DNA from: Azolla caroliniana
Taxonomy: Eukaryota > Plantae > Polypodiophyta
Assembly: GCA_043228905.1 (NCBI GenBank)
Contig: JBHGNT010000004.1
Coordinates: 12,834,001-12,898,000 of the forward strand
Direction of reading: 5' to 3'
DNA length: 64,000 bases
In this document: piece after piece, positions 28,438-54,791 of the stretch
Layout of the letters: every line of letters starts with the position of its first letter
Position numbering within the stretch: the first letter of the stretch is position 1
Notes under the pieces: generated by a model
Told to the model about the DNA's origin: nothing
Databases searched by the model: none
Seen by the model: the letters and a program-made list of their open reading frames with translations, nothing else
Program-made: the position numbers and the translations under genes

Positions 28438-30293
28438 TTTCCAGACTGCCGAAGTTCAGTAGCCAGAAAGGCCACATATGTGAAGCTTCCCAACTTGGGA
28501 AGCAACATAGGATTCTGTTCCCCAATGAGAAGAATTGGAGCCAGAATCAGCTCAATCTCATCCATTCGGATATGTGGGGATTGGCACAAAGCGTGAGCAT
28601 CGGTGGGAGTCGGTATTTCGTCTCCTTCATCGACAATTTCAGTCGACCCTCTTGGATCTATTTGATCGAGAAGAAGAGCGAAGTCTTCTCTTGCTTCCGA
28701 GACCTAAAGAATCATGTAGAATGAGAAACTAGAAGGAAAGATTAAGTGTCAGAGATCGGATGGCGAAAAAGAGTACTTTTCCGGCTAGTTCACTAATTAT
28801 TTGTAGACCAAGGGAATTCGTCGAGAGTTCTCCTGTAGATACATGCCGGACCAGAACAGCGTGGCCGAATGTCAAAATCGGACGTTGGTAGAAGCGGCTA
28901 GGGCAATGCTGGAGGAGAAGAGCTTGCCCAAGGACAAAGGTGTCGCCGCACAAACTGTATTTCGAGCAGAAGCCAAATTTAGCGCACTTTCGGGTATTCA
29001 GCAGCACTGCGTATGTGCATGTGACAGATGAAAGTGGAAGAAACTGGATGCAAAATCCAAGAAGTGCATCTTGGTTGGCTACTCCAAGAAGCAGAAGGGG
29101 TATAAGTGCTTCAACCCCCGTTCGAAGCAAGTCTGAGTAAGCCATGATGTCATCTTCGACAAATCAGGATCTTGGTACCTTGCATCATCCGAATTTGAGC
29201 CTATTGCTGCGGATGGGGCGACAGATTCCAGCATAGAGGGAAGTGTTGTGGAATCTGAATGATTGGATAGTCCGACTTCCCTCCAGATCAATGGACTGAA
29301 TCCGGATTGGTTGAGCCAGAGCGGTTAACTAGATGACGAGCCGGCGAGTAGCGAAGACTCGGTCGTGCTCTCCCCGTGCAAGGAATCAAGGAGACGGTTC
29401 ACACGCAAAGAGAAAGGGAAGAAGAAGATGTCGGAATATGACACCGGCAGGCAAGAGTCGAATCAGAGCAAGAAGACGAACCTTCGGAGAAGAGGTCAGA
29501 GTCGGCCAAGAGGGCCATCAAATCGGTAGAGCAGAAACTACGCTGATCTACCCGCCAGAAGCACCCCGTAGTTTGGTACGGATATAACGAGTATATGGGG
29601 CATCATTATGTGTACATGGCGAAGGTGGCAATTGTGCGTGAGCCGGAGAGCTACGTAGAAGCAACTAAGGATACGAATTGATAGAAGGCCATGGAGGAAG
29701 AGATGCATGCACTCACGGATAATGAGACGTGGAACTTGGTGGACGTACTGAAAGGAGTGAAGCCGATCGGTTGCTGGTGGGTATACAAATTCAAATACAA
29801 CATCGATGGCTCCGTCAACCGGTACAAGCCCCGATTAGTGGCAAAGGGCTACGCACAACAGCACGACATCGACTATGATAAGACGTTCATGTTGGTCGCA
29901 AACATGACGACCGTTCATGTCTTGCCTGTGGTGGCTACGGCGAAGGGGTGGCATCTACATCAAATGGATGTAAAAAATGCGTTCCTACAAGGTGATCTTG
30001 AGGAACAAGTATACATGGTTCATCCTGTTACCCGTAAGAATATAAGGGGAGGCATAAGGGTATGTGTAATGATGTGGTTGATGTGTATGTGTAAAGTAAA
30101 TGAGTGTGTGAGAATGAGTATGTGTGAGCACATGCACAATTATGTGCATGTGACAAGAGTGTAATAGTCATTATTTACCGTTAATTATGTATTATATAAA
30201 CCCCTTATGGGACATCTAATGGATAGACATTTTCCCCCCTCTCATTTGATGTCATTTTTATTTGCCTTTCTCTCTAGCTCTCTCTTTAACTTT

Positions 30294-33200
30294 TGTTGAG
30301 CGAGCAAGCTCAACTGGATCCGGATCGGCATCCAGAAGGATGAGCCGGAATCGATATCCGGATGGTATCCGAAAACAACCAGCCGGATCGGGGAGCCGAA
30401 TCGGAGAGCCGGATTCGAGTGGGAACCGGAAGCCTAGTAGTAGCCTAGACTACTAGGTAATCATTGTCTCGTAGTTAGTGTCAGTCGCATATGTGAAGAA
30501 TTAAAGTACCTGTCAGTACTTCTGTCAGTCCTTTATGCACTTATATAAATAGTGTTGTTTAGCACATTGTATGCACAGAGTTTTAGAGTTAATTTTTGAA
30601 TATAGTTTTATGTTCTGCTCTCTTTGTCTCCTCTGTTTTTTAAGCTTTTCCATTAAACCTTCATCTCATTTTTTGTTGCTATCCGACTGAACCGGTTTTG
30701 TCTGACACTTCCGCACATTAACATTCACATGGTACTAGAGCGCGAGGGTTGAGAACCTCTGCAGCCGACATTTGCTTCCGTAGACAAACCCTAGAACCCG
30801 GTAACAACAAATAGAGAGAAGATATGGAAAGAGGAATGGCGAGTTCACTTCCAACCGAGAAGCTCGATCGGAGCCACTTTGCATCCGGGGTCATATAAAA
30901 TGCACCTATACCTGCTGGGGCATGGATATTGGAACTTCGTGGAAGGAACAAATGAAGTAGCACCGGAGCCGTCACACGAAGAATTTCCGGTATGGGAGCA
31001 AGCAGCGAGTTGGGTACTGTACTATCTCGCATCTGGTGTGCATGATCAAATGCTCAGCGACATCAAATATGCAAAGACGTCGAAGGAGGCCTGGGAAAAT
31101 CTACAGAAGCTTTTCGCCGCAAGTACCACAGCTTGTAAGTTGCAGCTCCGGCGAGAGCTGAAAAACATCCGGCAAAGAGACATGTCAATTATGGACTACA
31201 CCACCAAGATAAAGGAGATCTGCGACGCACTCGGGTCCATCAACGTGACAGTGGACAAAGATGAGATGGTACAAATCTGCCTCGGTGGTCTAGCGCAAAG
31301 GTACGGGCCAATCCGGACAACGATCTGCACCCAAGAGAAACCACTGTCCTTCTTCGACTTGCAATCGATGCTGATGGTCGAAGAAAACCACGCGAGTGGG
31401 TCAAGGACCACTCAATCGGATGGCCGGATGTTGTACACAGAGACAGATCGACCCCATGACGTGGTGGACGAGGTGGGTCGGCACGCAATGGAGGTGGCCG
31501 ACAAGAGCAAGACTGGAGGCACAGAGGTTGTGCCGACAGCAGTTCCGGACCCTCCACAAGTAGGGGGAGTCAAAGCGGCGTCGGGAACCGGCAAGGAAAG
31601 GCCGACACGGAATGCTAGTACTGTGGCAAAAAGGGCCACCAGGAAAGCGAGTGCTAGAAGAAGCGCGCCGATTCGGACAAATTCGGATCTGGCAAAACCG
31701 GTTGAGAGATCCGGCAAAGCTCGCACTTCGCGGAAGGATCGGAAGGATCCGGAACCGGGAAAACCGGTAAAGGGGCCAGCCTTCGTGATGAAGCACAAGG
31801 CTAACTCGATGAAGAAGACTACTTCTGGATCGGAGGAAGTATGGTACGTTGATTCCAGAGTGTCCAACCACATGACGAGCCATGAAGAGTGGTTCTCTTT
31901 TTTGGAGAAACTGGAACAACAGGGGATTGACGAAACCGGAGACGACACCCCTCACCCGATTGTGCATGTCGGAGAAGTCCCTTTAAGCCATGTCGGACAA
32001 AAGGGGAAGTTGATGAACATACTACACATTTTGACTATCACAAAGAACCTGGTGTCAATTGGGCAAATCGTTGACCAGGAGATGCAGGTGCGGTTTACAC
32101 ACCTAGGGTGCTTCATCGAGAAAGAGGGCCGGATAATTGCGCAAGGGCGTAGACACGGGAGGATGTTCATCCTCAACACTAATGATGTCGGCACCGCTAT
32201 CTTTGCGAAAGGGTAGAAGGTCGAATCGGACATCGACCTATGGCACAAGCTAATCGGCCACGTCACTATCGGAGGCTTCAAGACTTGCAATCGAAACAAG
32301 TCATTTTCAGTTTGCCGAAATTTAGCAACCGAAAGGCTGAAATTTGTGAAGCCTGCCAACTCGGGAAGCAACACCAGCTTCCATTCCCAACCGATCGAAA
32401 CTGGAGCCATAACAAGCTCGATTTAATCCATTTGGATGTATGGGGACCAGCACAAAACATTAGTCTTGGCGGGAGTCGGTATTTTGTCTCCTTCATCGAC
32501 GACTACAATCGGCACACGTGGATCTACCTCATCGAGAGGAAGAGCGAAGTCTTCGAGTGTTTTCGGAACCTTCAAAACTTGGTTGAATGGGAAACGGAGA
32601 GGAAGATCAAGTGCCTACGGTCGGATGGCGGGAAAGAATACATTTCCAGCCAATTCAACAGTTATCTACAACAGAACGGAATTCGGAGAGAATTCAGCTG
32701 TAGGTACACACCGGAGCAAAACGGTGTGGCCGAAAGGAAGAACCGGTCGATTGTCGACGCGCAAGGGCAATGTTGGAGGAGCAGAGCATGCCCCATTTCT
32801 ACTAGGTCGAGGCGGTCCGGACGGCCATCTATATCCAAAACCGGATTAGTGACAAGGTGTCAGCACATGAGCTGTATTTTGGGCAAAAACCGAATTTGAG
32901 ACACCTTCGGATATTTGGTAACATAGCATATGTGCATGTACCGAATGAGAAGTGGAGGAAGCTGGATCCGAAGTCGGAGAAGTGCATTCTAGTCGATTAC
33001 TCGCATAACCAAAAGGGGTATAAGTGTTATAACCCCCGGACTAAGCAGGTTCGAGTAAGTCAAGATGTCGAGTTTGATTAGACGGCATCATGGTACTCCT
33101 TACCAACTCCAACTCCCGACGAAGACCCGATTCCGGAAGATGAGGCTAGTGAGCCCGAGGAGGTCTACGTAGAAGATGAAGATCTCGGCACTCTAGAAGA

Positions 33201-36200
33201 GAGTCTGATCTCATTCCGACTAAGTGGACCGAATGAGCGGCTGAGTCGGGATGACCAGCCGGAGAGAAAGAAAGAACCAACAAAGGGGGAGACAAGAGGA
33301 AAAAGTAAGCCAAGCCGAGCGAAGGAGTCGGCACATCCGAAAAGGTCGGAACAAGTGGCAATGGACGCAGAGTCAAGAAGGATAGAGCCGACCGGAAGAA
33401 AATGGCCAAGACCCAGGCGTGGTCCGATGTGGTGAAGGGCCTGAAACTGAAAGACGAGTTGGAGAACACCGACTCGGACAAGGGCTTAAAAAAATCAAAG
33501 GAAACCGATTTGATTCAAGATTCAGAGAGGCCAGATCAACTAAAGGCCAAGCGGACACGGACGCAGCGGAAGTCGACGCCAACACGAAGGAACCGACGGG
33601 TCGACAAGCACCAGATTCACAACAGTGAGGGAGCTTGTAAAAAGTAACATGCGGAAGAAAGTATGAAGACCGAACAGAAGGAAGAAAACTCAGGTTTAAT
33701 GGAGAGCTTGAGCTTACGCAGTATACGCGGGAGAGACCAAGAGAGTGAAAACACAAACAAAAATATATTCAAGAACTATTCACCATTCTATACATGTGTG
33801 TGTTCAATGAACACTTTGTACAAGTCCTAGAAGGACTGACCGAAGTACCGACAGTACTTCAATGCTCATTAAGAGCTCCAACACTCACTCCCAAATATAT
33901 TCCTCACGGAATATCTTTCCTAACGGCCTCCCCGTTTATGCACCGCTCTGGCCCTACCTACGCACCGGTCTGCGTGCCGGTTTACGCATTCGGCCTAACC
34001 GATCCGGTCCTCGGCTTCTTCAGTCAATCCGGACGATGTTGAGCTTGTCTCTCAACACTCCCCCTCAAGCTCAACTTGAGGCTCTTCGGGATCTTCGGGC
34101 TCACAGCTCCGGTTCCTCCTGGCTTCACGCCTCGCTCGCGCTCCACGACCTATTCGACTCCGCGCGCTTCGACCCTTCCGGTCGGCTTGTCTGCTCATGT
34201 GGCCCTTATCAGCTCTTCTGTTGTTGCGATGTTGACGCTTCTCCTGCTGCCTTTTCCTCCGCTTGGGCCTCGGTTGATTCAGTGTATCTGAATCAAACAT
34301 CCGAACTGACTCGGTTGCCTCCGATCGGTTTTCTCTCTCATCCGAGTTGGCTGTCTCCAACTTGTCTTCGGTCTTCTCGCCCTCGATGGCGTCATCTTCC
34401 CCATGCGTGGTTGGCTTCGGCTCTCTCCTTCAGCTGCTCCCCTTCTGTCCGCTTCCGGACTTTTCCGCGGGTCCGCCCTCGGCTTCTTCAGCCGATCCAA
34501 AGTCGAACTCGACAACCGAGTCAACCGACTCGGTGTCGCGGTCTCCGCTCCTTTCCTGCTACCTTGCCTGGTTGTTTGGGACTGTTCTCCCCCTCAAGTT
34601 TGGCACGTCGAGGTGACGCAATCCGAGCGCACCCGAGAATTGCCGCAACTTGTCCAGACCAAGAGGCTTGGTGAAGATGTCGGCAGTCTGCCGATCCGTC
34701 GAAACGTACTGAAGTTTGACTTCACCGGAAAGGACACGCTCGCGGACGAAATGGTAGTGCACCTCAATGTGCTTGGTCCGTGCATGGAAAACGGGGTTTT
34801 TCGCGAGCTGGATGCTGCTTAGGTTGTCGCAGTAGATTGTCGTCGGATCTGACACCTCCTCTTGCAGGTCCTTAAGTAGCCGCTTCAACCATATGGCTTC
34901 GCATGTCACGACAGCCGCTCCTCGGTACTCAGCATCGGTGCTCGACAGTGCAACTGTCGGCTGCTTCTTCTGCTCCACGCGATCGCGGCACTCCCGAGGG
35001 AGAACACGTATCCGGACGTGGATCGGCGATCGGCGGCGTTGCCAGCCCAATCAGCATCGGTGTAGCCGACTAACTGCGTGGCTGCACCGGTCCAATATAA
35101 CAGTCCCCGGTCCTTAGTGTCGTTGACATACCGAAGTATGCGTTGCGCACACTGAAGGTGCTCCTTGGTAGGTCGCGCCATGAACTGACTCATCACTCCA
35201 ACCGGATAACTGAGGTCGGGTCAGGTGATGGTCAAGTATATGAGGCTTCCGACAATTTGTTGGAACCTCGTCGGGTCGCATACCTTTCCCGTATCGGGAC
35301 GAAGCTTGACGGTTCTGTCCAGAGGAGTCGAGACGGACTTACAGTCGGCCATCCCGAATTTGAAGAGCATACTCAGCACGTAATGACGTTGGCTGATCAA
35401 TATGCCTTCGGGGGTACGGATCACTTCGATCCCGAGGAAGTAATGAAGGTCCCCCAGATCCTTCATGTCGAACGATGCCGCAAGCTGGAGCTTCACGCGG
35501 TCGATTTCACCTAGGTCGGCGCCGGTGATGACCAAGTCATCAACATATAGTAAAATACTAACCGGTCTGAGTCGACCTTTCCGGATGAACAGGGAAGAGT
35601 CCGATTTTGACGTGACGAAGCCCATCCGACGCAGTTGTTGCATGATCTTCGCGTTCCAGGCACGCGGGGCTTGCTTCAGTCCGTAAAGGGACTTCTTCAG
35701 TCAGTATCCTGCCGAGGAGTTCATTCCAAGGTGAAATCCAGGGGGCTGTACCATATACACCTGTTCCTCAAGGTCACCTTGTAGGAACGCATTCTTTACA
35801 TCCATCTGATGTAAGTGCAACCCCTTCACCGCAGCTACTGCGAGCAAAACACGGACGGTCATCATTTTCGCGACCGGCGCAAACGTCTCATCGTAGTCAA
35901 TGTCGTGTTTCTGCGCATAGCCCTTTGCCTTTGCCACTAGCCAAGCCTTGTACCGGTTGACCGAGACATCGGTGTTGTACTTGACTTTGTACACCCACCT
36001 ACACCCGATCGGTTTTACCCCTCTTGGTGCGTCAACTAGGTCCCAAGTCTCGTTCTCTGCCAATGCGTGCATCTCTTCCTCCATCGCGGCACGCCAATTT
36101 GCGTCTTTAGCCGCTTTTGCGTAGCTCTCCGGCTCACGCACTTCCGCTACACGGGTCATGTACGGATAATGATGCACCATGTACTCGTTGTATCCGAACC

Positions 36201-39195
36201 GCAAAACAGGATTCTTCTGGCGGGTAGATCGGCATAATCTCACATTAGCCGATGTCGAGGCCTTCTCGGTCGACGTGGACTTCACCTTTAAAGACCCATC
36301 ACCGATTCCCTCGGAGTCGGACTCGCGTCGGTCTGACTCGTACCTATCCGTGCCGGAATCCGACACCTTTTTCTTCCCTTTCTCTTTGCGCGTAAGCCGT
36401 CTCCTCGGCTTCCTGCACTGGGAATGCACGGCCGAGTCTCCACTACTCGCCGGCTCTTCATCGGACTGATCGTACCGACTCAGTCGTCCAATCGGTCCAC
36501 TTAAACGGAGTTAAATCGGACTCTCTTCGCGGGTCTCGATTTCGGGCTCATCCGGAGGCATCTCGGCCTCGCTGACCTCATCGTCAGAGCTCAGATTGGA
36601 GTCGGGGGCTGGTACCAGGACGCGGACTCGTCAAACACAACATCGCGGCTAACACGCGCTTGTTTGGTGCGAGGGTTATAGCACTTATAACCCTTCTGCT
36701 CGTCCGAGTAACCGACCAAGATGCATTTCTCGGCCTTTGCGTCCAGCTTCCTCCTTTTCTCCTTTGGTACATGCACATACGCAATGCTACCGAACACCCT
36801 CAAGTGTCGCAAGTTCGGCTTCATTCCGAAATATAGCTCGTGCGCCGACACCTTGTCTCCGATCCGGTTCTGGATGTATACCGCGGTCCTTACCGCCTCG
36901 GCCCAATAGAACTTGGGCAAGCTCTTCTCCTCCAGCATTGCATGTGCCGCTTCCACAACTGACCGATTCTTCCTCTCGGCCACTCCTTATGGCTCGTCAT
37001 GTGGTTTGACGCGCCGGAGTCTACATACCACACCTCGTCCGATCTCGGGGTGGTCCGTTTCATTGAGTTCGCTTCATGTCTCGTCACGAAGGCAGACCCT
37101 TCTCCGGCTCTCCCGGAGTCTTCGGCGTAGTGCGATCGCTCCCGATTTCCCTTGTCGGTATTTCCAGAGCCGTTTCCGGAACCGGTTCTCTCCGAATCGG
37201 CGCGCTTCTTCCAGCACTCACTTTCCCTGTGGCCTTTCTTGCCACAGTACCAGCACTCCGCGATGGCCTTCCCTTGCTGGTTCTCATCGCTTCGACTCCC
37301 CCTGTTTCCGGAGGGTCCGGAGTTGCTGTCGGCGTCTCTTCGGTGCCTTCTTCCTTGATCTCGTCGGCCGCCTCCATTGCGCGCCGACTCGCCTCGTCCT
37401 CCACGTCCACGGGGCCTATCTCCCTCCGTGTACAACATTCTGATGTCGGTGTGCATGCTTGTAGATGCACCCGCGTGGTTCTCCTCTACCAGGAGCATTG
37501 ATTGTAAGTCGAAAAAGGACAGCGTATTCTCCCGGGTACACACAGTCGTTCGGAACTCTCCGAACTTCGACGCCAAACCTCCGAGACAGATCTGGACCAT
37601 CTCGCTCTCCTCGATGTTCACCTCTATGGAGGCGAGGGAGTCACAGATATCCTTGATCTTCGAGGTATAGTCCGCCACCAACAAGTCGCGTTGTCGTAGG
37701 TTGCTCAACTCTTGTCGGAGCTGAAGCTTCCTGGCTGTGGTGCTCGCGGCGAAAATCTTCTTCAGATTTTCCCACGCACCCTTCGGCGTCTTTGCATCCC
37801 GAACATAGCTCAATAGTTGTTCGCCCACACACGACGCAAAGCAGTATAATACCCTGCTCACCGATTGCTCCCTCGACGGGAAGTCTCTATGTGTCAATTC
37901 GGGTGCCGCGTCATTAGCTCCTTCGACATAACTCCAGTAGCCGTGCCCGAGCAGGTACTGGTGCATCTTGTAGGACCAAGACGCGTAGTTGGTTCTGTCG
38001 AGCTTCTCTGTTGGAAGCGAGCTCGCCATGCCTCTATCCATCGTTCTTCTTGTTTTTCTTCGTCAAGTTGTGTCGGCTGCAGAGAGGTTCTCAACCCTCG
38101 CGCTCTGATACCATGTAAAAAGTAACGTGCGGAAGCAAGTATGAAGACCGCATAGAAAGAAGAAAACTCAGGTTTAATGGAGAGCTTGAGCTTACGCAGT
38201 ATACACGGGAGAGACAGAGAGAGTGAAAACACACACAAAAATATATTCAAGAACTATTCACCATTCTATACATGTGTGTGTTCAATGAACACTTTGTACA
38301 AGTCCTAGAAGGACTGACCGAAGTACTGACAGTACTTCAATGCTCATTAAGAGCTCCTACACTCACTCCCAAATATATTCCTCACGGAATATCTTTCCTA
38401 ACGGCCTCCCGGTTTACGCACCGATCCGGCCCTACCTACGCACCGGTCTGCGTACCGGTTTACGCATTCGGCCTAACCAATCGATCCCAACCGATCCGGT
38501 CCTCGGCTTCTTCAGTCGATCCGGTCGATGTTGAGCTTGTCTCTCAACAGAGCTTAAATGGGCTATTGAGCAGACAAGCCGATCGAGGAGGTCGAGGTGC
38601 GCAGAACCAGAAGGGTTGCGGCAAACAAGACCGGACCGAACAAGGAACGCGAGCGAGGCGGAGCAACGCTAGAAGGGGCCGAGTAGAAGAACTGGTTGCC
38701 ACGACCACTAACATCACGATCCGACCTCAAGTTGAGCTTGAGGGAGAGTGTTGAGCGAGCAAGCTCAACCGGATCCGGATCGGCTTAATAAGCCTGAGCC
38801 AGATCGACATCCAAAAGGATGAGCCAGATCAATATCCGGAAACAACCAGCCGGATCGAGGAGCCGGATTAAAGAGCCGGATTTGAGCGAGAACTAGAAGC
38901 CTAGTAGTAGCCTAGACTACTAGGTAATCATTGTCTCACAGTTAGTGTCAGTCGCACGTGTGAAGCATTAAAGTACCTGTGAATACTTCTGTCAATCCTT
39001 TATGGACTTGTATAAATAGTGTTGTTTAGCACGTTGTATGCACATAGTTTTAGAGTTAATTTTTTAATATAGTTTTATGTTCCGCTCTCTCTGTCTCCTC
39101 TATTTTAAAGCTTTTCCATTAAACCTTCATCTCATTTTCTGTTGCTATCCGGTTGAACCGGTTCTATCTGACACTTCCGCACATTAACATTCACA
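30294..39195 (+). mobile_element. MDRG-family copia lacking RT-RH, inserted in the left LTR of element A
   Basis: LTRs 30294-30729 and 38749-39195; PBS TGGTACTAGAGC; gag-PR-IN motifs, then a jump at ~33260 to the 3' region. Confidence 0.9.
33636..38549 (-). mobile_element. MDRG-family copia with a PR-IN internal deletion, nested
   Basis: TSD GAGCT; LTRs 33636-34057 and 38114-38549; PBS 38102-38113; ASNHMTSHKEW joined to AERKNR at ~36985; RT YVDD and RH present. Confidence 0.93.
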
Positions 39196-39284
39196 AGCTT
39201 AACCCCCTTGGGCACCCCCCACCCCAACAACACTTTTGGCACGCTTGAACGGCCAACCCTCCCTTGAGAAGAAGTCATTCATAG

Positions 39285-39322
<38 letters not shown>

Positions 39323-39912
39323 CAAATTGTTCTTACATCTCCGCATATTCTCTCTCTCTCGCTCAGGAAAACGAAGCTTTCAAGATGTCTTCTTTTGACG
39401 CAATGTCTCTCTCCCGAATTAGGTAGAGAACGACCAGTTCCTATTCTCGTTTCCTGATACCTCATCATCCGTCTCCATTTTTCTATGATGCTCCATGCTG
39501 ACTCAGAACTCTTCGTGTTTTCTTGCTCGGCAATGATGAGAACGATGATCCCATGGCTCTGGTTGGGAATCTTCATGTACACCCTCCCATCATGGAGCAG
39601 AAAGCTGAGAATATTGCTCTTGTGAAGCTTCCGACCAAGCCCTTGCCTCTGCGCAAGCCCTTGCCCCTGTGCAGTCTGATAAAGAATCTCACACTGATGG
39701 TGTTTGTTAGAGACATCGTGCACATTGATGTTAGAGAGCTCCATGCTCCATCAACAAGAATCTGATCTCTGCACATACTCGCGCACTAGTATTTTCCAAA
39801 AGCCTCACAGAAACCATCGCCATCTAATACACTTCTGTCTCTTCTATCCTTTTCCTGTTTGTTTTTTTCCTACTTCTTTTCTAGGTATTCTATCTTGCTA
39901 AGCTCTCTGGTT

Positions 39913-40345: not shown

Positions 40346-40469
40346 TAATCCGATGACGAGGTGTAGCCTCACCAGCAACATCAGAGATAGCACATGACAA
40401 CGACTAGACTGACAACCGGCGGGACAGAGATATCCATCGGCGGCAGAGGAGGCCAGGACATGTGGGTGA

Positions 40470-40900
40470 GACGCGCGACCGAGAAGTCGATCGAGACGCA
40501 CGGCTGAGACGCATGCTCGAGAGTGCGGCCGAGACGTGTGGCCGAGAGCACGGCCAAAACGTGCGGCTGAGACGCGTGGCCGAGAGCACGACCGAGATGC
40601 GCGGTTGAGAATACGGTCGAAACGCGTGGCCAAGAAGATGGCTGAGACGCGTGCCCGAGAGGACGGCCGAGAAGCGCGAGATGCACAGTCGAGAGGACAG
40701 CCGAGACGCACGACCGAGAGTATGGCCAAGAGGCGTTGTCGTACTATGGCCGAGAGATGTGTGGTGAGAGTACGGTCAAGTGATGGCCGAGAAACGACGG
40801 CCGAGACGCGCGGCCGAGAAGACGGCCAAGACGTGCGACCAAGAGCACGGTCAAGACGCGCGGTCGAGAGTATGGCCAACAACCTGTGGACAGACGACCA
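40470..40900. repeat. GC-rich degenerate tandem repeat (GAGACGCGTGGCCGAGA-like units) inside element A
   Basis: Direct reading. Confidence 0.8.
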
Positions 40901-41732
40901 TGGCCAACTGGTGGAGAGCACCAATGGACGACAACAGCCGAACAGGCGGTCCGGTAGCTGACAGTGACGGCGACAACCAATCAGATAGAGATGGCCGAGC
41001 GAGTGATGGTCGTGGTACAGAGCCGGTCTGACGGTTCGACAACCGACAGACGGTGGCCGCTGGACAGACCGGCCGCCGAACAGTGCCAGCCGGCTGGTGA
41101 CGGCCCCGAACAGATGTCCGACGACAGACGAACAGTGACAACCGATAGGCGGCGATGACTACCGTCTGAGATAGTCGGTCGTCGGTCATCAGCGCCAAAC
41201 CGGCTGTCCACGGAGACAGCGGATAGGGTTGTCCGGACAGAAGCTCCGACCCGACGACAAGCCTCCGTCAACGAAGAGCCGGACAGAAAGAGAGGAGCCG
41301 GACAGAAGCTCCGACAAAGAAGGAGAAAATGAAGAAAAGGGAGAGTAAGAAGAAACTGAAGCCATGGAAGAGGCAGTGCAGTGGTTGCTGCAAGAAGGAA
41401 AGAGAAGGAGAAGAAGAAGAGGAGAAGATCGAGGAGGGAGAGGACGAGGATCGAGTAGAAGAACGCAACAAAAGACAGAGAAGAAAGAGAAAGGAAGATA
41501 GACAAAGAAGAGGAGTATGGAGAAGAAACAGAGAGAGGACGACGACAGATAGAAAGAGAGAGAAGAAAACGTCTGGGGGCATCCCATAAAATTTTAGAAA
41601 CATAAGGGCAAAGAAGACGAAATTTCAAAAGCCTGAGGACTTCCAAGTGAATTTAAAAAACGGGAGAGAGTAGAAGAGAAAATTTCGGAAACTCAAGGGC
41701 ATAAAATAAAATAAAATAAAAATTTACAAAAA

Positions 41733-44700: not shown

Positions 44701-46704
44701 CCGGCACGGAAAGGAAGGAGTCAGACCGACGCGAGTCCGACTCTGAGGGAACCGATGACAGGTCTTTAAAGGTGAAGACCGCGTCGACCGAGAAGGCCTC
44801 GACATCCGGAAAGGTCAACTCGAACCGGTTAGTATTCTACTATATGTTGATGACTTGGTCATCACCGACGCCGACCTAGGTGAAATCGACCGCGTGAAGC
44901 TTCAGCTTGCGGCATCGTTCGACAGGAAGGATCTGGGGTACCTTCATTACTTCCTCGGGATCGAAGTGATCCGTACCCCTGAAGGCATATTGATCAGCCA
45001 ACGTCACTACGTGCTGAGTATGCTCTTCAAATTCGGGATGGCCGACTGTAAGACCATCTCGACTCCTCTGGACAGAACCGTCAAGCTTCGTCCCGATACG
45101 GGAAAGGTATGCGACCCGACGAGGTTCCGACAAATTGTCGGAAGCCTCATATACTTGACCATCACCCGACCCGACCTCAGTTATCCGGTCGGGGTGATCA
45201 ATTAGTTCATGGCGCGACCTATCGAGGAGCACCTTCAGTGTGCACAACGCGTACTTTGGTATGTAAGCGGCACTAAGGACCGCAGACTGCTATATCGGAC
45301 CGGTGCAGTCGCGCAGTTAGTTGGCTACACCGATGTTGATTGGGCTTGCAACGCCACCGATCGCCGATCCACGTCTGGATACGCGTTCTCCCTCGGGAGT
45401 GCCGCGATCGCGTGGTGCAGTAAGAAGCAGCCGACAATTGCCGTGTCGAGCACCGAAGCTGAGTACCGAGGAGCGGTTGTCGCGACATGCGAAGCCATAT
45501 GGTTGAAGCGGCTTCTTAAGGACCTGCAAGAGGAGGTGACCGATCCAACGACGATCTACTGCGACAACCTCAGCAGTATCCAACTCGGGAAGAACCCCGT
45601 CTTCCATGCACGGACCAAGCACATTGAGGTGCACTACCATTTCGTCCGTGAGCGTGTCCTTTCTGGCGAAATCGAACTTCAATACGTTCCGACGGGTCGG
45701 CAGACTGCCGACATCTTCACCAAGCCTCTTGGTCTGGACAAGTTGCGGCAATTCTCAGGTGCGCTCGGGTTGCGTCACCTTGACATGCCGAACTTGAGGG
45801 GGAGAACAGTCCCGAACGACCAAGCAAGGCAGCAGGAAAGGAGCGGACACCGCGACACCGAGTCGGTTGACAAGTTCGACATCGGATCGGCTGAAGAAGC
45901 CGAGGGCGGACCCACGGAAAAGTTCGGAAGCAGACAGAAGGGGAGCAACTGAGGGAGAGAACCGAAGCCAACCACGCATGGGGAAGATGACGCCATCGAA
46001 GGCGAGAAAACCGAAGACGAGTTGGAGACAGCCAACTCTGACGAGAGCGAAGACCGATCGGAGGTAGCCGAGTCGGTTCGGATGTTTGATTCAGACACGC
46101 TGAATTAACCGAGGCCCAAGCGGAAGAAAAGGCAGCAGGAGAAGCGTCAACACCGCAACATCAGAAGAGCTGATAAGGGCCGCATGAGCAGACAAGCCGA
46201 CTGGAAGGGTCGAAGCGCGCGGAGTCAAACAGGTCGAGGAGCGCGAGCGAGGCGTGAAGCCAGGAGGAACCGGTGCTGTGAAGATCCCGAAGAGCCTCAA
46301 GTTGAGCTTGAGGGGGAGTGTTGAGAGACAAGCTCAACATCGGCCGGATCGGCTGAAGAAGACGGGGACCGGATCAGTTGGGACCGATCGGTTAGCCCGA
46401 GTATGTAGACCGGGAGGTCGTTAGGAAAGATATTCCGTGAGGAATATATTTGGGAGTTAGTGTAGGGGCTCTTGATGAGCATTGAAGTATTGTCAGTAGT
46501 TCGGTCAGTCCTTCTAGGACTTGTATAAAAGTGCTCACTAAGCACGTCTTATGTACAGACTTGAGTATTATTATTGAATATAGTTTTTGTGTCTACTCCC
46601 TCTGTCTCTCCTGCGTATACCGTGTAAGCCCAAGCTCTCCATTGAACCTGAGTTTCCTTCCTCTGTTCTGTCTTCATACCTGCTTCCGCACGCTAATTTC
46701 TACA
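41733..46704 (+). mobile_element. MDRG-family copia with an RT N-terminal deletion, nested in element A
   Basis: LTRs 41733-42093 and 46319-46704; PBS TGGTATCAGAGC; imperfect A-rich TSD; gag, PR, IN, deletion at ~44808, YVDD, RH. Confidence 0.93.
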
Positions 46705-46860
46705 CAAAAAAATTGAGGGCAAAATTTTAAAGACCAAAGGGTAAAAAATATAAAACTCACTTCACATTATGAAAGAAAGAATACACAAATGCACAACACG
46801 ATTTTACGACCCATGCCACAGTGAACGAACCAATTGGTGTATGATCCAATCGCGACTTGT

Positions 46861-47690
46861 GCTGACTGAACGAGAAGGTTCGAGTCAAGCAAAGCTCCAA
46901 TCGAAGTTATCGATCGTAGAGTAGTGATTTGGTCGAGGGATTTCCGACCGTTGAGATGACTGATGAAGTTCCGGTCGAGAAGAGTTGCCATGGCGAGTGG
47001 GTTCACCGTGCAATGCACTGTCCCACAGGTGTGCCATGTGTTACCCGTAAGAATATACAGGGAGGCATAAGGGTATTGTTGAGATACAAGCTCAACATTG
47101 GCCGGATCGGCTGTGCAAGCAGAGAACCGGATCGGTTGGGACCGATCGGTTAGGCCGGACCGGTGCGTAAAACGGATACGCAAACCAGTGCGTAACGAGA
47201 GGCCGTATCAGTGTGTAAACCGAAAGGCCGTTAGAGAGATATTCCTTGTAAGGAATAGTTTTGGGAGTAAGTGTCGCTGACTGAACGAGAAGGTTCGAGT
47301 CAAGCAAAGCTCCAATCGAAGTTATCGATCGTAGAGTAGTGATTTGGTCGAGGGATTTCCGACCGTTGAAATGACTGATGGAGTTCCGGTCGAGAAGAGT
47401 TGCCATGGTGAGTGGGTTCACCGTGCAATGCACTGTCCCACAGGTGCGCCATGTGTTACCCGTAAGAATATACGGGGAGGCATAAGGGTATTGTTGAGAT
47501 ACAAGCTCAACATTGGCGGGATCGGCTGTGCAAGCCGAGAACCGGATCAGTTGGGACCGATCGGTTAGGCCGGACCGGTGCGTAAAACAGATACGCAAAC
47601 CAGTGCGTAACGAGAGGCCGTATCGGTGTGTAAACCGAAAGGCCGTTAGAGAGATATTCCTCATAAGGAATAGTTTTTGGGAGTAAGTTG
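46861..47690. repeat. 415-bp tandem duplication spanning an insertion junction
   Basis: GCTGACTGAACGAGAAGG at 46861 and 47276; the unit includes element A PBS, its LTR start and ~200 bp of copia LTR. Confidence 0.93.
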
Positions 47691-50114
47691 TCGAGGCTCA
47701 TTTATGAGCAATCAAGTACTGTCAGTACTTGTGTCAGCCTGATTGTCAGGGCTTGTATAAAAGTGCTCACCGATCACATCCTATGTACAGATCGAGTATT
47801 ATTTTTTAATTAAGTTCTCGTGTTTTACTCTCTCTCTGTCTCTCCCGTGTGTACTGTGCAAACCTAAGCTTTCCATTAAACCCGCGTTTTCTGTTGTTCG
47901 GTTTCCTATATTGCTTCCGCACGCCATTCTTTTCATGGTATCAGAGCGCGAGGGTTGAGAACCTCTACAGTTGACTTTGCGTGAAGGAAAAACCAACGAA
48001 GAAGAACAAGAAAACCGATGGACAGAGGAATTGCTAGCTCGCTTCCGACGGAGAAGCTCGACAGAACCAACTATGCATCTTGGTCCTACAAGATGCACCA
48101 GTACCTGCTTGGGCACGGTTACTGGAGCTATGTCGAAGGAGTGAATGACGCGGCACCCGAATCGACACATAAAGACTTCCCGGCGTGGGCACAATCAGCG
48201 AGCAGAGTGTTGTACTGTTTCGCGTCTTGTGTGGGCGAACAACTATTAAGCTACGTTCGGGATGCAAAAACGCCGAAGGGTGTGTGGGAAAATCTAAAGA
48301 AGATCTTCGCCGCGAGCACCACAGCCAAGAAGCTTCAGCTCCGACAGGAGTTAAACAACCTATGACAACGCGATTTGTCGGTGGCTGACTATACCTCGAA
48401 GATCAAGGACATATGCGACTCCTTAGCTTCCATCGATGTGAACATCGAGGAAAGCGAGATGGTCCAGGTCTGTCTCGGGGGTTTGGCGTCAAAGTTCGGA
48501 GTGTTCAGAAATTGTTGTGTGTACACAGGAGAATACACCGTCGTTTTCAATTCATGGCGCGACTGACCGAGGAACACCTTCAGTGCGCACAATGCGTACT
48601 ACGGTACGTAAGCGACACTAAGGACCGGGGGCTACTATATCGGTCCGATACAGCCCCGCAGTTGGTAGGCTACACCGATGCCGACTGGGCCGGCAACGTC
48701 GCCGATCACCGATCCACGTCCGATTTCGTGTTCTCTCTCAGGAGTGCGGCGATCGTGTGGAGTAGCAAAAAGCAGCCGATAGTTGCGTTGTCGAGCACCG
48801 AGACCGAGTATAGAGGAGCGGCTATCGCGACATGCGAAGCCATATCGTTGAAGCGGCTAGTCAAGGATCTTGCAGGTGGAGGTATCTGATCCAACGACCA
48901 TCTACTGTGACAACCTCAACAATATCCAACTCGCAAAGAACCCCATCTTCCACACCCTCACTAAGCACATTGAGGTGCACTACCATTTTGTCCGTGAGCG
49001 TGTCCTCTCCGGTGAAGTTGAACTTCAGTATGTTCCGACGGATCGGCAGACCGCCGACATCTTCACCAAGCCTCTTGGTCTGGACAAGTTGCGGCAATTC
49101 TCGGGTGCGCTTGGGTTGCGTCACCTCGACGTGCCGAACTTGAGGGGGAGAGACGTCCCTGATGACCATGGAAGGGAGCAGGAAAGGAGCGGAGAAGACC
49201 ATAACGCTGAGTCGGATGACGAATTCGATTTTGGATCGGTTGAAGAAGCCGAGGGCGGATCTGTGGAAGAGTCCAAAAGCGGACATAAGGGGAGTAGCCG
49301 AAAGGAAGAGCCGAAGCCACCAAGCATGGGGGAGATGACGCCGTCAAGGACGAGAAGACCGAAGACAAGTTGGAGACAGTCAACTCGGACGAGAGCGAAA
49401 ACCGATCGGAGGTAGGCGAGTCGATTCGAATGTTTGATTCGGATACACTGAATCAACCGAGGACCAAGCGGAAAAGAAGGCAGTAGGAGAAGCGCCAACA
49501 CCGCGACAGCAAGGGAGTTGTGAAGGGTCGTGGGAGCAGACAAGCCCACTAGAAGGGTCGAAGCGCGCGGAGTCGAACAGGCCGAGGAGCGCGAGCGAGG
49601 CGTGGAGCCAGGAGGAACCGGAGCAGTGATTTGGAAGATCCTGAAGAGCCTCAAGTTGAGCTTGAGGGGGAGTGTTGAGATACAAGCTCAACATTGGCCG
49701 GATCGGCTGTGCAAGCCAAGAACCGGATCAGTTGGGATCAATCAGTTAGGCCAGACCAGTGCGTAAAACGGATACGCAAACCAGTGCGTAACGAGAGGCC
49801 GTATCGGTGCATAAACTGAAAGGCCGTTAGAGAGACATTCCTCGTAAGGAATAGTTTTGGGAGTAAGTGTCGAGGCTCATTTATGAGCAGTCAAGTACTG
49901 TCAGTACTTGTGTCAGCCCGATTGTCAGGGCTTGTATAAAAGTGCTCATCGAGCACATCCTATGTACAGATCGAGTATTATTTTTGAATTAAGTTCTCGT
50001 GTTTTACTCTCTCTCTGTCTCTCCCATGCGTACTGTGCAAACCAAAGCTTTCCAATAAACCTGTTTTTTTTGTTGTTTGGTTTCCTATATTGCTTCCGTA
50101 CGCCATTCTTTTCA
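47492..50114 (+). mobile_element. MDRG-family copia deleted from mid-gag to late RT, inserted in the right LTR of element A
   Basis: TSD GGTAT; LTRs 47492-47935 and 49673-50114; PBS 47936-47947; junction at ~48548. Confidence 0.93.
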
Positions 50115-52442
50115 GGTATGTCTAATAATGTGGTTGATGTGTATGTGTAAAGTAAATGAGTGTGTGAGGATGAGTATGTGTATGGACACATGCACAACTA
50201 TGTGCATGTGTACAAGAATGCGTAACGGTCTTATTTATAATGGTCATGTAGCTGTTACATTGGATGTATTATATAAACCCCCTATGGGGTATGTAATGAA
50301 TAACTTTTTCCCTCTCATTTTGGTGTGTTTCTTTGTTTCACTCTCCTTCTCTCTCTATCGTAATTCCCTTGGGAGAATGGCTTCACCCCCCACCCAACAA
50401 CACATCCTCCCAGATTTAAGTTTGGAATGAGCACGTCGACCATTTTCCGACTGAAGAAGTCCCTATATGGACTCAAGCAAGCCCCGCATGCCTAGAACAC
50501 GAAAATCACGCAACGACTGTGTCGGATGGGGTTTGCTGTGTCGAGGTCAGACTCTTCCCTATTTATCTGGCGACATCGGAATGGGCCGGTAAGTATTTTT
50601 CTTTTTACGTTGATGATTTAGTCATCGCCAACAACGACCTGGACAAAATCGACCGCATCAAGTCCGAACTTGCAGCATCGTTTGACATGAAGGATCTTGG
50701 GGACCTTCATTACTATGTGTTGAGTATCCTCTTCAAATTCGGTACGATGGAACGCAAGACCGTCTCAACTCCTCTGGATACGAATGTGAAGCTCCACCCC
50801 TACTCTGGAACGGCATGCGACTTGCCACGGTTCCGACAAATAGTCGGAAGCTTCATATATCTTACCACCACCCAATTGGACCTCAACTATCCGATCGGAC
50901 TGATTAGTCAATTTATGGTGCATCCAACCGTGGAGCACCTTAAGTGCACGCATCGAATACATAGATATGTCAATGGCACTAAGGACAGGGGGTTGCTATA
51001 TCAAACCAATGTGGTCGGACAACTTGTCGGCTACACGGATGTCGATTGGGCCGGAAATGCAGGCAATCGTAGGTCTACATCTAGATATGAGTTTTCACTT
51101 GGAAGCGTTGCAGTCACCTGGAGCAGTAAGAAGCAACCAATAGTAGCATTGTCGAGCACTGAGGCCGAGTACTGAGGAGAGGTTGTCATGACATGCGAAG
51201 CCATTGGCTCAAGAGGCTCCTAAAGGATCTGCAGTTGGAGGTGTCCGATCCGATGACGATCTACTGTGACAACCTCATCAACATCCAGTTGGCGAAGAAT
51301 CCTGCTTTTCATGCTCAGACCAAGCACATTGAGGTGCACTACCATTTTGTCTCTAACCATGTCCTCTCTGGTGAAGTCGTACTTGTGTATGTTCCGACGG
51401 ATCTGCAGACTGCCGACATCTTCACCAAACCTCTTGGCTTGGACAAGTTGCAACATTTTTTGAAGATGCTTGATCTTCAGCATCTCGACATGCCACACTT
51501 GAAGGGGAGAAAGGAGGAAACCGGAACGAGAACTGGGAAAATAGGTAATGGCATCGAACAAAGAACCGGAGACATACGGGGAGACAAGAAGAAGAAGGAA
51601 GCCATGTCGATTGAAGAAGTCGGCACATCCGATAAAGTCAGAACAAGCGGCGATGGCGGCAGAGTCATGACGGATAGAGCCGACTGGAACGAGAAGGCCA
51701 AGACCCGGACGTGGTCTGACATGGTGAAGGGCCTGAAGTTTGAAGACAAATTGGAGACAACCAATTCAGACAAGAGTCAGAACAAATTTGTTGCCTCCGA
51801 TTTGGAAGAGGAGTTCAATTCCAAGGAATCGAATCAACAAAAGGCCAAACAGACGAGGAGGCAGTACCGGAGTCGTAACAGCGAAAGACTTGAGAAAGGG
51901 CCTTATGAGCAAACAAGCCGACCAAGAAGGTCGAGGTGCGCGGGGCCAGACGGGTCAAGGAGCGCAAGCAAGGTGGGAAGACGCTAGGAGGAGCTGGAGG
52001 AGAGGACCAGTGGACACACAGTGTGATCCGACCTCAAGTTGAGATTGAGGGTGAGTGTTAAGCGGGCAAGCTTAACCAGATCCGGATCAGTTGAATAAGC
52101 CAGAGCCGGATCGGTATCCGGAACGGAGAACCAGATAAGTACCCAGATTAGTGTCTGGATATATCAGTATGTGGAACCTAGAGTTGGACCAGAGAAGCGG
52201 ATCATACTCCAGAATAGTGAGAACCAGTAGGCCGTTGGAGCCTATGATCTGAGCCTAGTACATAGGCATATTCCTTGGAGTTAGTGTCAGTTGCTCGTAT
52301 GAGCATTGAAGTACATGTCAGTCCTTTTAAGGACTTGTATAAAGAGTGTTCTATAGGACATTTGTATGAACATAGTGTTATTATTTTGATTTTTAAGTTT
52401 ATTGTTATGCTCTCTCTAACTCTCTCGTGTATTCAAGCTTTA

Positions 52443-54791
52443 TGTTACCCGTAGGATTGTACGAGGCGATATAAGGGTAAAATACGTTAAAGGGGTTGTC
52501 GTATTTGTGTAATGTATACGAGTGTGAGTGAGAATAAATATGTGTGTGAACACATGCACAATTATGTGCATGTGACAAGAATGTAACGGTCTTCTTTTTG
52601 TTAAGAGTCATGTTATCAGTTACATAATGTACTATGTGTCACTTCTTATTTCTCTCTTTGTTCTCTCTCCCTCCCTCCCTCCGAGGTAATCCCTCTTGGG
52701 AGGGGGGGTGGACCATTCTAGGCTTCACCCCTCACCCACCAACGCCATGCCATGGGAAACAACCCTCCCTTTAGAAGAAGTCATTGTCTCCCTCCCTCAC
52801 TCTCCCTCTCCATCACTAATCTCTTTCTCTCTCCCTCTCCCTCTCCCTCTCCCTCTCTGCCTCCCTCTCCATCACTAATATCTCCCTCTCTCCCTCTCTA
52901 CGTGTCTATCAATCAAAGAGTGGTTTTGTGCGTGGATTGTCTGTGTGGGAGCCAGCTGGCGATGGAGATCTCAACACTGCCTATGAAGCTTGACAAGCAA
53001 AGGAAATGGTTTGAATCACAGTCTCGTTGTGGAGTATGCCTTGAGAAGATGATTAGAGACACTATGCAACAATGCATAGTATACAAGGAACAAGCAAGAA
53101 TAAACCAAGATGCATGTGCTGCTCTGGTTGCAAGACTTGAGTTTCAAAGAAAGATTTGTGACCTAGATGAGGAAGAAGCTGAAGGGACTGACGAAAGAAG
53201 CACCCAAAAAGGTTATAGAGAACTAGTTTCAGGTTCTATTACACAAACCGGAGGAGATGGAGAGATGTCATAATGAAAATCTTCAGAGTATGAAAACATT
53301 GCACCATGAGTGAGTTTCTCGTGAAGAGAGGGAATACTGTCAATGGGATTCTCAAGAAACTCAGATTTAGCCAAGCTTAAGAATCAAGTGAGATGAGAGG
53401 AACGGTACCCTCTACCACAAGCAAGATCAAGACACAGTCACGAACAGCGGTGAACGAACGAACGCCGCCGGCACAGTCCGGCAGCCAGCCAGCAAGCAAC
53501 CGAAAAGGCTCGGCCGAGCCGACTGAGCGACGGCCTATGTCCGGTAGGGGTAGGGGTAGGGGTAGGGGTAGGGAGGGCCGGAAAGGCACGACCGAATAGA
53601 CGATCGTGATCGTGGCCAGCCGGCGAAGACCACCCGACAACATCGGCAGACAGTCACAGGCGTCGAACAAAGGGTCCCACAGGCGGCCGCCGGAACGAGC
53701 CGACAGCCGGCAGACGACGTCAGAGGTAGCCCACGGAGAGACGGCTATGGACAACCTACGAACCGAGACGGCCACAGACAGACAGATAGGAGGCGGGAGA
53801 AGAAGATGATCATTAGAGAAAGAAAAGGAAGAAAAAGATGACCATCACCACCGCCACCACAGAAGACAAAGACAAAGACAGAGGAGAGGGCATGATAGAA
53901 GAGAAGAAGAAGAGAAAGAACGCAGAAAAAGACACATACGAAGAAGAAGATATAAGAAATAAGGAGCAATCGAAATAGAGGAAAGAATTACAACAAAAAG
54001 GAAATCAAGGAAGCAGGAAGACGACAAAGAAGTGGAAGAAAACTACGAAAGATACACAGAGAAAAAGGAGTATAAAAAGAGAGAAGGGCATCAGATAAAA
54101 ATTACAATAACGCGAGGGCACGCAACCGAATTTCAAGAACCGAAGGGCAGCAACCGAAATTTTGAAAATGAAAGGGCCGAAAATCAAATTTCAAAAAAAT
54201 TGAGGGTAAAAAAATGAAAAAGAACAACGGGTACAAAATGTAAAACTCACTTCACATAACAAAAAACAAAAATACAGATACACACAACATAATGTTAAGG
54301 CTCATGCCACAATAGACGAGCCAATTGGTGTGTGATCCAATCAAGTGACATGCTGACCGAACAAGAAGGTTCAATCGAGTCAAGCAAAGCTCTGATCAAA
54401 GTTATTGATCGTAGAGTTGTGTTCTGGTCGAAGGATTTCCGACCGTTGAGACAATAAATGTAGTTCTGGTCACTAAGAGTTGTCGTGGCGAGTGGATTTA
54501 CCGTGCGATGCACTGACCCATAGGCGTGCCATGTGTTACCCGTAGGAGTGTACGGGGCGGTATAAGGGTAAAACACATTAAAGGGGTTGTCGTATTTGTG
54601 TAATGTATACGAGTGTGAGTGAGGATAAATGTGTATTATTAACCCTTTATGGGGCATGTAATGCAATAGAGATTTTTCCACTCTCATTTTGTGTCACTTC
54701 TTATTTCTCTCTTTCTTCTCTCTCCCTCACACGTAATCCCCCTTGGGAGGGGGGTGGAACCATTTTAGGCTTCACCCCCCACCCACCAACA
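52443..54791 (-). mobile_element. Non-autonomous LTR element copy B (2.35 kb) with a different cargo
   Basis: LTRs 52443-~52744 and ~54534-54791 (TGTTACCCGTAGG...CCACCAAC); TSD CTTTA/CTTTC; minus PBS TGGCACGCCTATGGG at ~54517-54531; 54190-54533 homologous to 46705-47038. Confidence 0.88.
52962..53273 (+). pseudogene. Probable captured host-gene fragment (coiled-coil-like protein)
   Basis: KQRKWFESQSRCGVCLEKMIRDTMQQCIVYKEQARINQDACAALVARLEFQRKICD is protein-like, has no TE motif and is absent from copy A. Confidence 0.5.

What the first reader, a model, noticed from the sequence alone, without database searches (positions are those of the whole stretch)
30026..54791. Non-autonomous LTR family with a variable host-gene cargo slot ('Pack' LTR element)
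Seen: once nested inserts are removed, copy A (30026-50402, TSD CATCC) and copy B (52443-54791, TSD CTTTA/CTTTC) share ~260-320-bp LTRs, the LTR-adjacent motif CAACCCTCCCTT(G/T)AGAAGAAGTCATT plus a TC tract, a GC-rich block, an AG-rich block, a ~340-bp conserved leader and a PBS. Neither has gag/pol. Between the TC tract and the GC block they carry unrelated sequence: HSP90 plus another fragment in A, a coiled-coil-like fragment in B. Established: a TGGCACGCC..GTGGGAC PBS matches the 3' end of tRNA-Arg, as used by Tat-group Ty3/gypsy elements, some of which carry antisense extra ORFs near the 3' LTR. Inference: this family repeatedly captures host mRNA fragments at a fixed site and spreads them, like Pack-MULEs but RNA-based, and might produce antisense RNA or siRNA against the donor genes.
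Basis: partly seen in the sequence, partly recalled or inferred. Interest (0 to 1): 0.8.

Follow-up and report, generated by a model that had tools for sequence, protein, structure and literature searches.

The report
Gene-less retrotransposon ferrying spliced host mRNAs
In a plant genome, a family of over a hundred gene-less jumping elements carries, at one internal position, varying intron-free pieces of host genes, likely picked up from messenger RNA during copying and then spread, and like its likely helper element it has a copy of a tRNA's tip where the usual second-strand start signal should be.

Summary
Confirmed, with the orientation reversed. Copies A and B belong to a non-autonomous LTR family with at least 121 intact 3' ends. 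47 compact copies fall into 26 cargo lineages: pieces of HSP90, EF1A, EF1B, RPL6, HSP70, tubulin and others. Ten GT-AG intron positions of the donor genes are precisely missing. Copies with the same cargo have different TSDs, so cargo was captured from mRNA and re-transposed. The true PBS lies on the + strand after the left LTR (39237), so cargo is sense, not antisense. Likely mechanism: template switching onto co-packaged mRNA, as in Bs1 and LTR-mediated retroposition, but family-wide and repeated. The scan noted the tRNA-for-PPT site before in autonomous elements of this genome. Expression and siRNA were not shown.

The parts
30021..30025 (+). TSD of copy A, left (CATCC), in a copia RT region
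   Evidence: sequence
30026..30293 (+). Copy A 5' LTR, first part (TGTTACCC start; TATA-like box on +)
30294..39195 (+). Nested copia-type element in the 5' LTR (holds a second, minus-strand one at 33636-38549, TSD GAGCT); not part of the family
   Evidence: copia label from sequence reading, not from a family scan
39196..39232 (+). Copy A 5' LTR, last part (ends ...CAACAACA)
39237..39254 (+). True PBS of copy A (tRNA-Arg(TCT) type, template form)
39254..39325 (+). Family motif CAACCCTCCCTTGAGAAGAAGTCATT plus TC tract (5' module before the cargo)
39330..39745 (+). Cargo, first pieces: donors not found; weak Stm1_N hit (E 1.9e-4, below the curated cut-off); shared with copies L138/L139
39746..40297 (+). 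Cargo: HSP90 mosaic. 5' UTR and start from the C9 paralogue (85.5%), internal deletion, then a part closer to the C1 paralogue (89%) with one intron precisely missing near 40131
40400..41250 (+). GC/CpG-rich repetitive block of A (limits approximate)
41250..41732 (+). Purine-rich block of A (limits approximate)
41733..46704 (+). Nested copia-type element; not part of the family
46705..47019 (+).
47020..47036 (+). 17-nt copy of the tRNA-Arg 3' end (CCA included), 2 nt before the 3' LTR, where a polypurine tract normally sits
47039..47491 (+). Start of the 3' LTR, with a 415-bp tandem duplication (46861-47276 / 47276-47693) that repeats trailer end, tRNA site and LTR start
47492..50114 (+). Nested, internally deleted copia-type element in the 3' LTR (TSD GGTAT); not part of the family
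50115..50397 (+). Rest of copy A 3' LTR
50398..50402 (+). TSD of copy A, right (CATCC)
52443..52743 (+). Copy B 5' LTR (inserted in a copia LTR; left TSD CTTTA); its end and the PBS are decayed
52760..52900 (+). Family motif plus TC tract of B
52985..53425 (+). Cargo of B: host gene on C9 (no Pfam family), 124-nt intron precisely missing at 53071/72, plus a 330-nt internal deletion; at least 7 other copies carry it
53430..54190 (+). GC-rich then purine-rich blocks of B (limits approximate)
54192..54531 (+). 3' trailer of B ending in the tRNA-Arg 3'-end copy (54515-54531)
54534..54791 (+). Copy B 3' LTR; right TSD CTTTC follows

Best explanation
This is a multi-copy, gene-less LTR element family whose copies hold varying intron-free pieces of host genes in the sense direction behind the primer site; the pieces were likely gained by reverse-transcriptase template switching onto co-packaged mRNA, in particles likely supplied by a Ty3/gypsy helper that has no polypurine tract. 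Shown: the family, its TSDs, cargo diversity, precise intron loss, re-transposition of cargo lineages, + orientation, and chimeras with the helper family joined at the PBS. Inferred steps: (1) the 5' LTR transcribes the element; (2) tRNA-Arg primes the minus strand at the left PBS; (3) RT leaves the element RNA for an mRNA and returns, often near the mRNA 5' end, where CT-rich 5' UTRs resemble the TC tract, so cargo piles up behind that tract; (4) recombination between family RNAs and deletions reshuffle the cargo; (5) the 17-nt tRNA-end copy 2 nt before the 3' LTR sets the plus-strand start in place of a PPT, either by binding a second tRNA or as an RNase H-cut RNA primer. The cargo is mostly decayed and is most likely neutral freight.
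For: Family: 911 first-look candidates with 40 scored; 121 exact matches to the 3'-site/LTR junction pattern, control 0; 40 of 67 sampled copies match that pattern. Independent insertions: of 31 copies with both LTR starts, 21 had both ends resolved; 15 have an exact 5-bp TSD, 4 have 4 of 5, 2 are worse; LTR-LTR identity 91.7-99.0%, median 97.1. Cargo: 26 clusters among 47 slots. Of 516 six-frame segments scanned, 16 copy-by-family host Pfam hits came up, 15 sense and 1 weak antisense. Ten GT-AG intron positions in HSP90, EF1A, RPL6 and two unnamed genes are precisely absent, all on the element's + strand. Re-transposition: the same cargo under different TSDs (L033/L051, L045/L113, L126/L137); B's cargo in at least 7 other places; the RPL6 chimera in at least 6 others. 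Orientation: TATA-like box 61/69 vs 0/69; tRNA-type 18-mer at the left site in 9/43 and at the right site in 0/69, Fisher p=1e-4, as expected if progeny inherit the primer's sequence (PMC4549124, abstract). Helper: L097/L101 have 5-bp TSDs, gag-RT-RH-INT, the same PBS start and the same 3' site. The last ~58 nt plus LTR start are ~80% identical to the family's. L036, L117 and L216 carry helper-type sequence in antisense starting exactly at a tRNA-type PBS; L057 and L204 carry helper 5' sequence in sense. 5'-end bias: the HSP90-C9 piece begins about 30 nt after the donor TATA box; the HSP90-C1, EF1A and one unnamed piece begin in 5' UTRs.
Against: The LTRs of the family and of the helper do not align, and no sense gag-pol element with the family's own LTR was seen among 102 fetched copies, so the helper is inferred from chimeras. 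Many slots have no identified donor. Two mapped pieces (B's cargo; EF1A in L037/L118) start inside coding sequence, against a strict 5'-end rule. Microhomology at junctions was read by eye in a few cases only, with no statistical test. Five of 44 copies with a located PBS have an almost empty slot (L057, L059, L109, L111, L136). One removed GT-AG segment (108 nt, in L124) is in frame and is retained in a contig of run X1, so it may be an alternative intron. One weak Pfam hit is antisense (VWA_3, L194). The samples are best hits or exact pattern matches, not random draws.
Confidence: 0.8

Rival explanations
1. One reading: the element runs on the minus strand, and its cargo is antisense to the donor genes and yields regulatory antisense RNA or siRNA.
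For: A 17-nt site complementary to tRNA-Arg does lie on the minus strand next to the right LTR in 69 of 69 copies. Antisense extra ORFs near the 3' LTR are known in Grande, RIRE2 and Retand (PMC7264820, passages). Small RNAs from LTR-captured genes are reported in rice and sorghum (PMC3726574, passages).
Against: In the autonomous helper the same site lies downstream of gag-pol, before the 3' LTR. The TATA-like box is on + only. Primer-type conversion is seen only at the left site. No purine tract would exist in that orientation either: the longest pyrimidine run after the left LTR is 5. Cargo is 72-91% identical to the donors, which limits perfect siRNA matches. siRNA from silenced copies remains possible and untested.
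Confidence: 0.05
2. Capture is by template switching, but the slot is not special: cargo accumulates wherever the internal region is dispensable, and the TC, GC and AG blocks are themselves old cargo debris.
For: The GC and AG blocks do not align between A and B. Some pieces start mid-CDS. Some copies repeat the 5' module or lose the slot. Tan et al. state that microsimilarity can occur anywhere (PMC5131818, passages).
Against: The motif and TC tract precede the cargo in nearly all copies with a located PBS. Several donor-mapped pieces start in CT-rich 5' UTRs near the predicted start site.
Confidence: 0.3
3. The cargo pieces are ordinary processed pseudogenes (LINE-type insertions) or cDNA patches at DNA breaks that landed in existing copies and were later re-amplified.
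For: Intron loss alone does not name the enzyme. Nested insertions are common in these copies.
Against: No A-run of 9 or more in any of 36 slots. Pieces tend to keep 5' UTRs and lack 3' ends, the opposite of LINE 5' truncation (established knowledge; PMC5131818 passage). Near-uniform sense orientation (15 of 16 Pfam hits; 10 of 10 intron positions) is not expected of random insertion. Multi-gene chimeras are joined directly.
Confidence: 0.07

Closest known systems
LTR-mediated retroposition (Tan et al. 2016, PMC5131818; part of abstract and passages seen)
   Same: Partial, intron-less host pieces between two LTRs replace the element's ORFs; multi-gene chimeras; further rounds as non-autonomous elements.
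   Different: There, single events with one to a few copies. Here, one family of at least 121 copies holds 26 or more cargo lineages at one position and reshuffles them; no PPT.
Maize Bs1 (seen through PMC5131818, PMC13317346 and PMC7264820 passages)
   Same: Plant LTR element carrying exon pieces of several host genes, re-transposed.
   Different: Bs1 has 1-5 copies that all share the same switch points and forms one chimeric gene; here the cargo varies between copies and is mostly decayed.
Pack-MULE / Pack-CACTA (PMC13317346 passages; definitions partly recalled)
   Same: Non-autonomous families with conserved ends and variable host-gene cargo.
   Different: Those are DNA transposons with TIRs that capture genomic DNA; this family has LTRs, a PBS, 5-bp TSDs and spliced cargo.
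TRIM Katydid / long Veju / LARD (PMC13317346 passages; size definitions recalled)
   Same: Gene-less LTR elements moved in trans; occasional uptake of foreign sequence.
   Different: Size is intermediate (mostly 2-3.5 kb), cargo is the rule rather than the exception, and a tRNA-end copy replaces the PPT.
Non-chromovirus Ty3/gypsy clades Phygy, Athila, Tat (Neumann et al. 2019, PMC6317226; passages seen, supplements not seen), for the helper
   Same: gag-RT-RH-INT order, no chromodomain hit, 5-bp TSD, tRNA-Arg PBS, extra 3' ORFs as in OTA elements.
   Different: No aRH hit (defines Tat); long extra ORFs (unlike Phygy/Selgy); no PPT.

Membership tests
Non-autonomous LTR retrotransposon | Two direct LTRs with TG...CA ends and a TSD | tested here: met
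   exact 5-bp TSD in 15 of 21 resolved copies, and in A
Non-autonomous LTR retrotransposon | PBS after the 5' LTR | tested here: met
   tRNA-Arg(TCT) type in 44 of 72 loci; decayed in B
Non-autonomous LTR retrotransposon | No gag/pol | tested here: met
   no tblastn hit in 36 compact internal regions; one copy holds a copia gag piece (L113)
Non-autonomous LTR retrotransposon | Polypurine tract before the 3' LTR | tested here: not met
   longest purine run within 60 nt is at most 7 in 69 copies; a tRNA-end copy abuts the LTR instead
LTR-mediated retrocopies (Tan 2016; Bs1) | Intron-less partial host mRNA between LTRs | tested here: met
   10 intron positions
LTR-mediated retrocopies (Tan 2016; Bs1) | Multi-gene chimeras and secondary transposition | tested here: met
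LTR-mediated retrocopies (Tan 2016; Bs1) | Microsimilarity at switch points beyond chance | tested here: inconclusive
   seen by eye at a few junctions; no simulation
LTR-mediated retrocopies (Tan 2016; Bs1) | Co-transcription from the LTR | tested here: inconclusive
   only contigs of a run guessed to be RNA
Tat clade (helper element) | Extra aRH domain in the polyprotein | tested here: not met
   no RNase_H/RVT_3-type second hit in 15 ORF segments of L096, L097, L101; the copies are frameshifted, so a small decayed domain is not excluded
Tat clade (helper element) | RT/RH/INT phylogeny with REXdb references | not testable with these tools
   no reference set on hand
Phygy / Athila (helper element) | Phylogenetic placement; Phygy short without extra ORFs, Athila with extra ORFs and no aRH | tested here: inconclusive
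   extra 3' ORFs present, no aRH hit; no tree
Pack-MULE | Terminal inverted repeats, 8-11-bp TSD, genomic (intron-bearing) cargo (recalled) | tested here: not met
   direct LTRs, 5-bp TSD, spliced cargo

The most novel reading that the evidence does not exclude
A dedicated 'Pack-LTR' shuttle. Its TC tract is a reusable landing site for mRNA 5' ends, so the family samples the abundant transcriptome, builds and reshuffles multi-gene chimeras under its own LTR promoter, and spreads them. It keeps from its helper only the tRNA-Arg PBS and a ~45-nt end that mimics the tRNA-Arg tip, which would define a minimal PPT-free plus-strand priming signal.
Probability: 0.45. Interest if true: 0.8.

Novelty: new variant of a known kind. 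Interest (0 to 1): 0.62.

Why it matters
mRNA capture by LTR elements is known, but from one-off or low-copy cases. A single family with dozens of different, reshuffled cargos would be the RNA-based counterpart of Pack-MULEs and a natural data set for the rules of template switching (which mRNAs enter particles, where RT leaves and returns). A gene-less element keeps only what it needs in cis, so its retention of the tRNA-end copy at the PPT position narrows the candidate plus-strand signal to about 45 nt. The asymmetry in primer-type conversion and the antisense jump chimeras add DNA-level evidence on how this PPT-less lineage replicates.

Tried and rejected
Minus-strand orientation: rejected. 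My first idea that the LTR-adjacent motif is a remnant of antisense pol: rejected, since the match to the helper ends just before it. Search for a donor of A's first cargo pieces: all hits examined were other family copies (the supposed donor L182 is one), so the Stm1-like label rests on one weak Pfam hit. Naming B's donor: no Pfam family; Atlas hits at 0.76-0.77 are too weak to use. Pfam on short decayed segments is insensitive: it missed EF1A pieces that DNA search found. Search for an autonomous element with the family's own LTR: none among 102 fetched copies; L193 is a PBS fused to mid-gag, not an intact element. Expression: no RNA holder listed. Contigs of run X1 (RNA is a guess; several per cent different from the assembly) cover LTR, module-cargo junction and trailer, and one carries the B-type deletion; DNA in the run is not excluded, so I do not count this as evidence. 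TSD of L036 not resolved. L128 was mis-anchored and L129 and L140 lacked a located 3' LTR; all three were dropped from the 3'-site count. Literature: searches listed no paper whose title or abstract describes a multi-cargo non-autonomous LTR family or a tRNA copy replacing the PPT. Most listed papers were seen only as listings, and the REXdb supplements (PMC6317226), which may list such elements, were not read.
Full report
Observation. Self-comparison of the window and junction reading confirm both copies. A runs 30026-50397 with TSD CATCC inside a copia RT region. It is interrupted by nested copia-type inserts (30294-39195, holding 33636-38549; 41733-46704; 47492-50114) and a 415-bp duplication. 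B runs 52443-54791 with TSD CTTTA/CTTTC inside a copia LTR. A and B share LTRs (71-78%), the motif with TC tract, and the 340-bp segment (80%). Their GC- and purine-rich blocks match only in composition. Six helper ORFs find nothing in 36 compact internal regions.

Family. The 340-bp segment gave 911 first-look candidates, 40 scored at 90-93% besides A; B's gave 392. An exact junction pattern has 121 matches against 0 for the control. 40 of 67 sampled copies match it, which suggests roughly 200 intact ends (rough; the sample is best hits). I fetched 69 trailer-anchored loci, 3 HSP90-anchored loci and 30 PBS-anchored loci. Of 31 copies with both LTR starts, 21 were resolved at both ends: 15 exact TSDs, 4 with one mismatch, 2 worse; LTR identity 91.7-99.0%. 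Copies with nested inserts, no located PBS or no trailer in range were left out of slot clustering.

Cargo. 47 slots (34 from the first set, A and B included, and 13 from the second) form 26 clusters. Five of 44 copies with a located PBS are nearly empty. Pfam on 516 segments of both strands gave 16 host hits, 15 of them sense: HSP90 ATPase, WD40, RPL6e, MCM_N, EF1_GNE, FAE1 twice, Nramp, tubulin, GH1, HSP70, SpoU, DUF7135, and weak Stm1_N and Tower. One weak VWA_3 hit is antisense. DNA searches found intron-bearing donors for HSP90 (two paralogues), EF1A, RPL6 and a second gene and B's cargo. Ten GT-AG intron positions of 93-2854 nt are precisely absent from the cargo, all on the + strand; one 108-nt case may be alternative. 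No slot has an A-run of 9 or more. HSP90 was captured twice (C9 type in L138/L139, C1 type in L140), and A is a mosaic of both. The C9 piece starts about 30 nt after the donor's TATA box, and the EF1A piece includes 5' UTR exon 1. B's cargo and one EF1A lineage start inside the CDS.

Orientation. Both internal ends carry a tRNA-Arg(TCT)-like site (tRNA genes). The left, + strand site occurs in two forms of equal length: a template form (34 of 43) and the tRNA-complementary 18-mer (9 of 43; 7 of 30 in the second set). The right site has the 17-nt form in 69 of 69. Progeny inherit either the primer's or the template's PBS (PMC4549124, abstract), so the left site is the minus-strand PBS. The TATA-like box lies on + in 61 of 69 LTRs and on - in none. 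No purine run over 7 nt lies within 60 nt of the 3' LTR.

Helper. Copy L036 held 6 kb of antisense pol, which led to a family with 715 candidates. L097 and L101 are two-LTR elements with 5-bp TSDs, a PBS that starts like the family's, gag-RT-RH-INT and 3' extra ORFs, and the same 17-nt tRNA copy 2 nt before the 3' LTR. No aRH or chromodomain was hit, so Tat membership (PMC6317226, passages) is not met. The LTRs do not align with the family's. Only the PBS start and the last ~58 nt (about 80%) are shared. In L036, L117 and L216, which differ in extent or subfamily (L036 and L117 also in cargo), a tRNA-type PBS is followed at once by the reverse complement of a helper's 3' end. I infer that plus-strand strong-stop DNA annealed to the tRNA-end copy of a co-packaged helper molecule and copied it backwards. 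L057 and L204 carry helper 5' sequence in sense. These chimeras are the evidence for shared particles.

Mechanism. Shown: structure, diversity, splicing, re-transposition, orientation, chimeras. Inferred: co-packaging of mRNA, double template switching as in Tan et al. (PMC5131818, passages), return to the element at the TC tract, and plus-strand priming at the tRNA-end copy. I put the overall account at 0.8. The chance that the slot is only dispensable space rather than a landing site is about 0.3. The cargo has stops and frameshifts and looks neutral; no function is shown.

Comparison. It works like LTR-mediated retroposition and Bs1, and meets the testable features except a statistical microhomology test and transcription. 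It differs in scale and turnover: Bs1's 1-5 copies share their switch points (PMC5131818, passages), and the rice and sorghum survey counts captured genes genome-wide, with no such family in the passages I saw (PMC3726574). A 2026 review (PMC13317346, passages) names Bs1, a TRIM, Veju and BARE-2 as the plant cases. Searches listed no closer case; supplements were not read. Earlier notes of this scan describe the PPT replacement in autonomous elements of this genome; I had reached it before reading them, and they are not independent support. Notes on single-cargo families and one landing-site case exist for other genomes; none was found for this family.

Verdict. Interest 0.62.

Noticed in passing
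L036 (G000:C13:7711300-7721100), L117, L216: Family copies in which a tRNA-type PBS is followed directly by up to 6 kb of the helper's 3' part in antisense; likely products of a misdirected second strand transfer onto the tRNA-end copy.
   Followed up: partly
L083:2107 and 9186; L091:6521; L053:6430: Other gypsy families in this genome also have a tRNA-Arg-end copy 2 nt before the 3' LTR, with small variants; some have LTRs starting TGTTACC like the cargo family.
   Followed up: partly
window 46861-47693: 415-bp tandem duplication that includes the start of the nested copia LTR, so it arose after that insertion (or is an assembly duplication).
   Followed up: no
window 24510-52434: An old copia-type element hosts copy A in its RT and copy B in its 3' LTR; at least five levels of nesting in 30 kb.
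   Followed up: partly
L047:9294-9677: Two family LTRs joined tail to tail in inverted orientation right after the 3' LTR.
   Followed up: no
L124, L061, L048, L108: The 5' module (motif plus TC tract) occurs twice in tandem, in L124 with an EF1A start piece between the two; suggests recombination between family RNAs at the module.
   Followed up: partly
L181:3023-3130 (G000:C9): In-frame 108-nt GT-AG segment inside a long exon of B's donor gene, removed in cargo copies but kept in a contig of run X1: possible exitron.
   Followed up: partly
G000:C839 vs C1:32.63 Mb; C849 vs C1:29.00 Mb: Small contigs repeat the HSP90 and EF1A loci nearly exactly; probably haplotigs.
   Followed up: no
window 12653-14298: Array of AT-rich ~140-160-nt units, each with an internal palindrome-like core.
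   Followed up: no
window 17723-18326 and 22438-23041: 604-nt direct repeats 99.7% identical, probably LTRs of a very young element.
   Followed up: no
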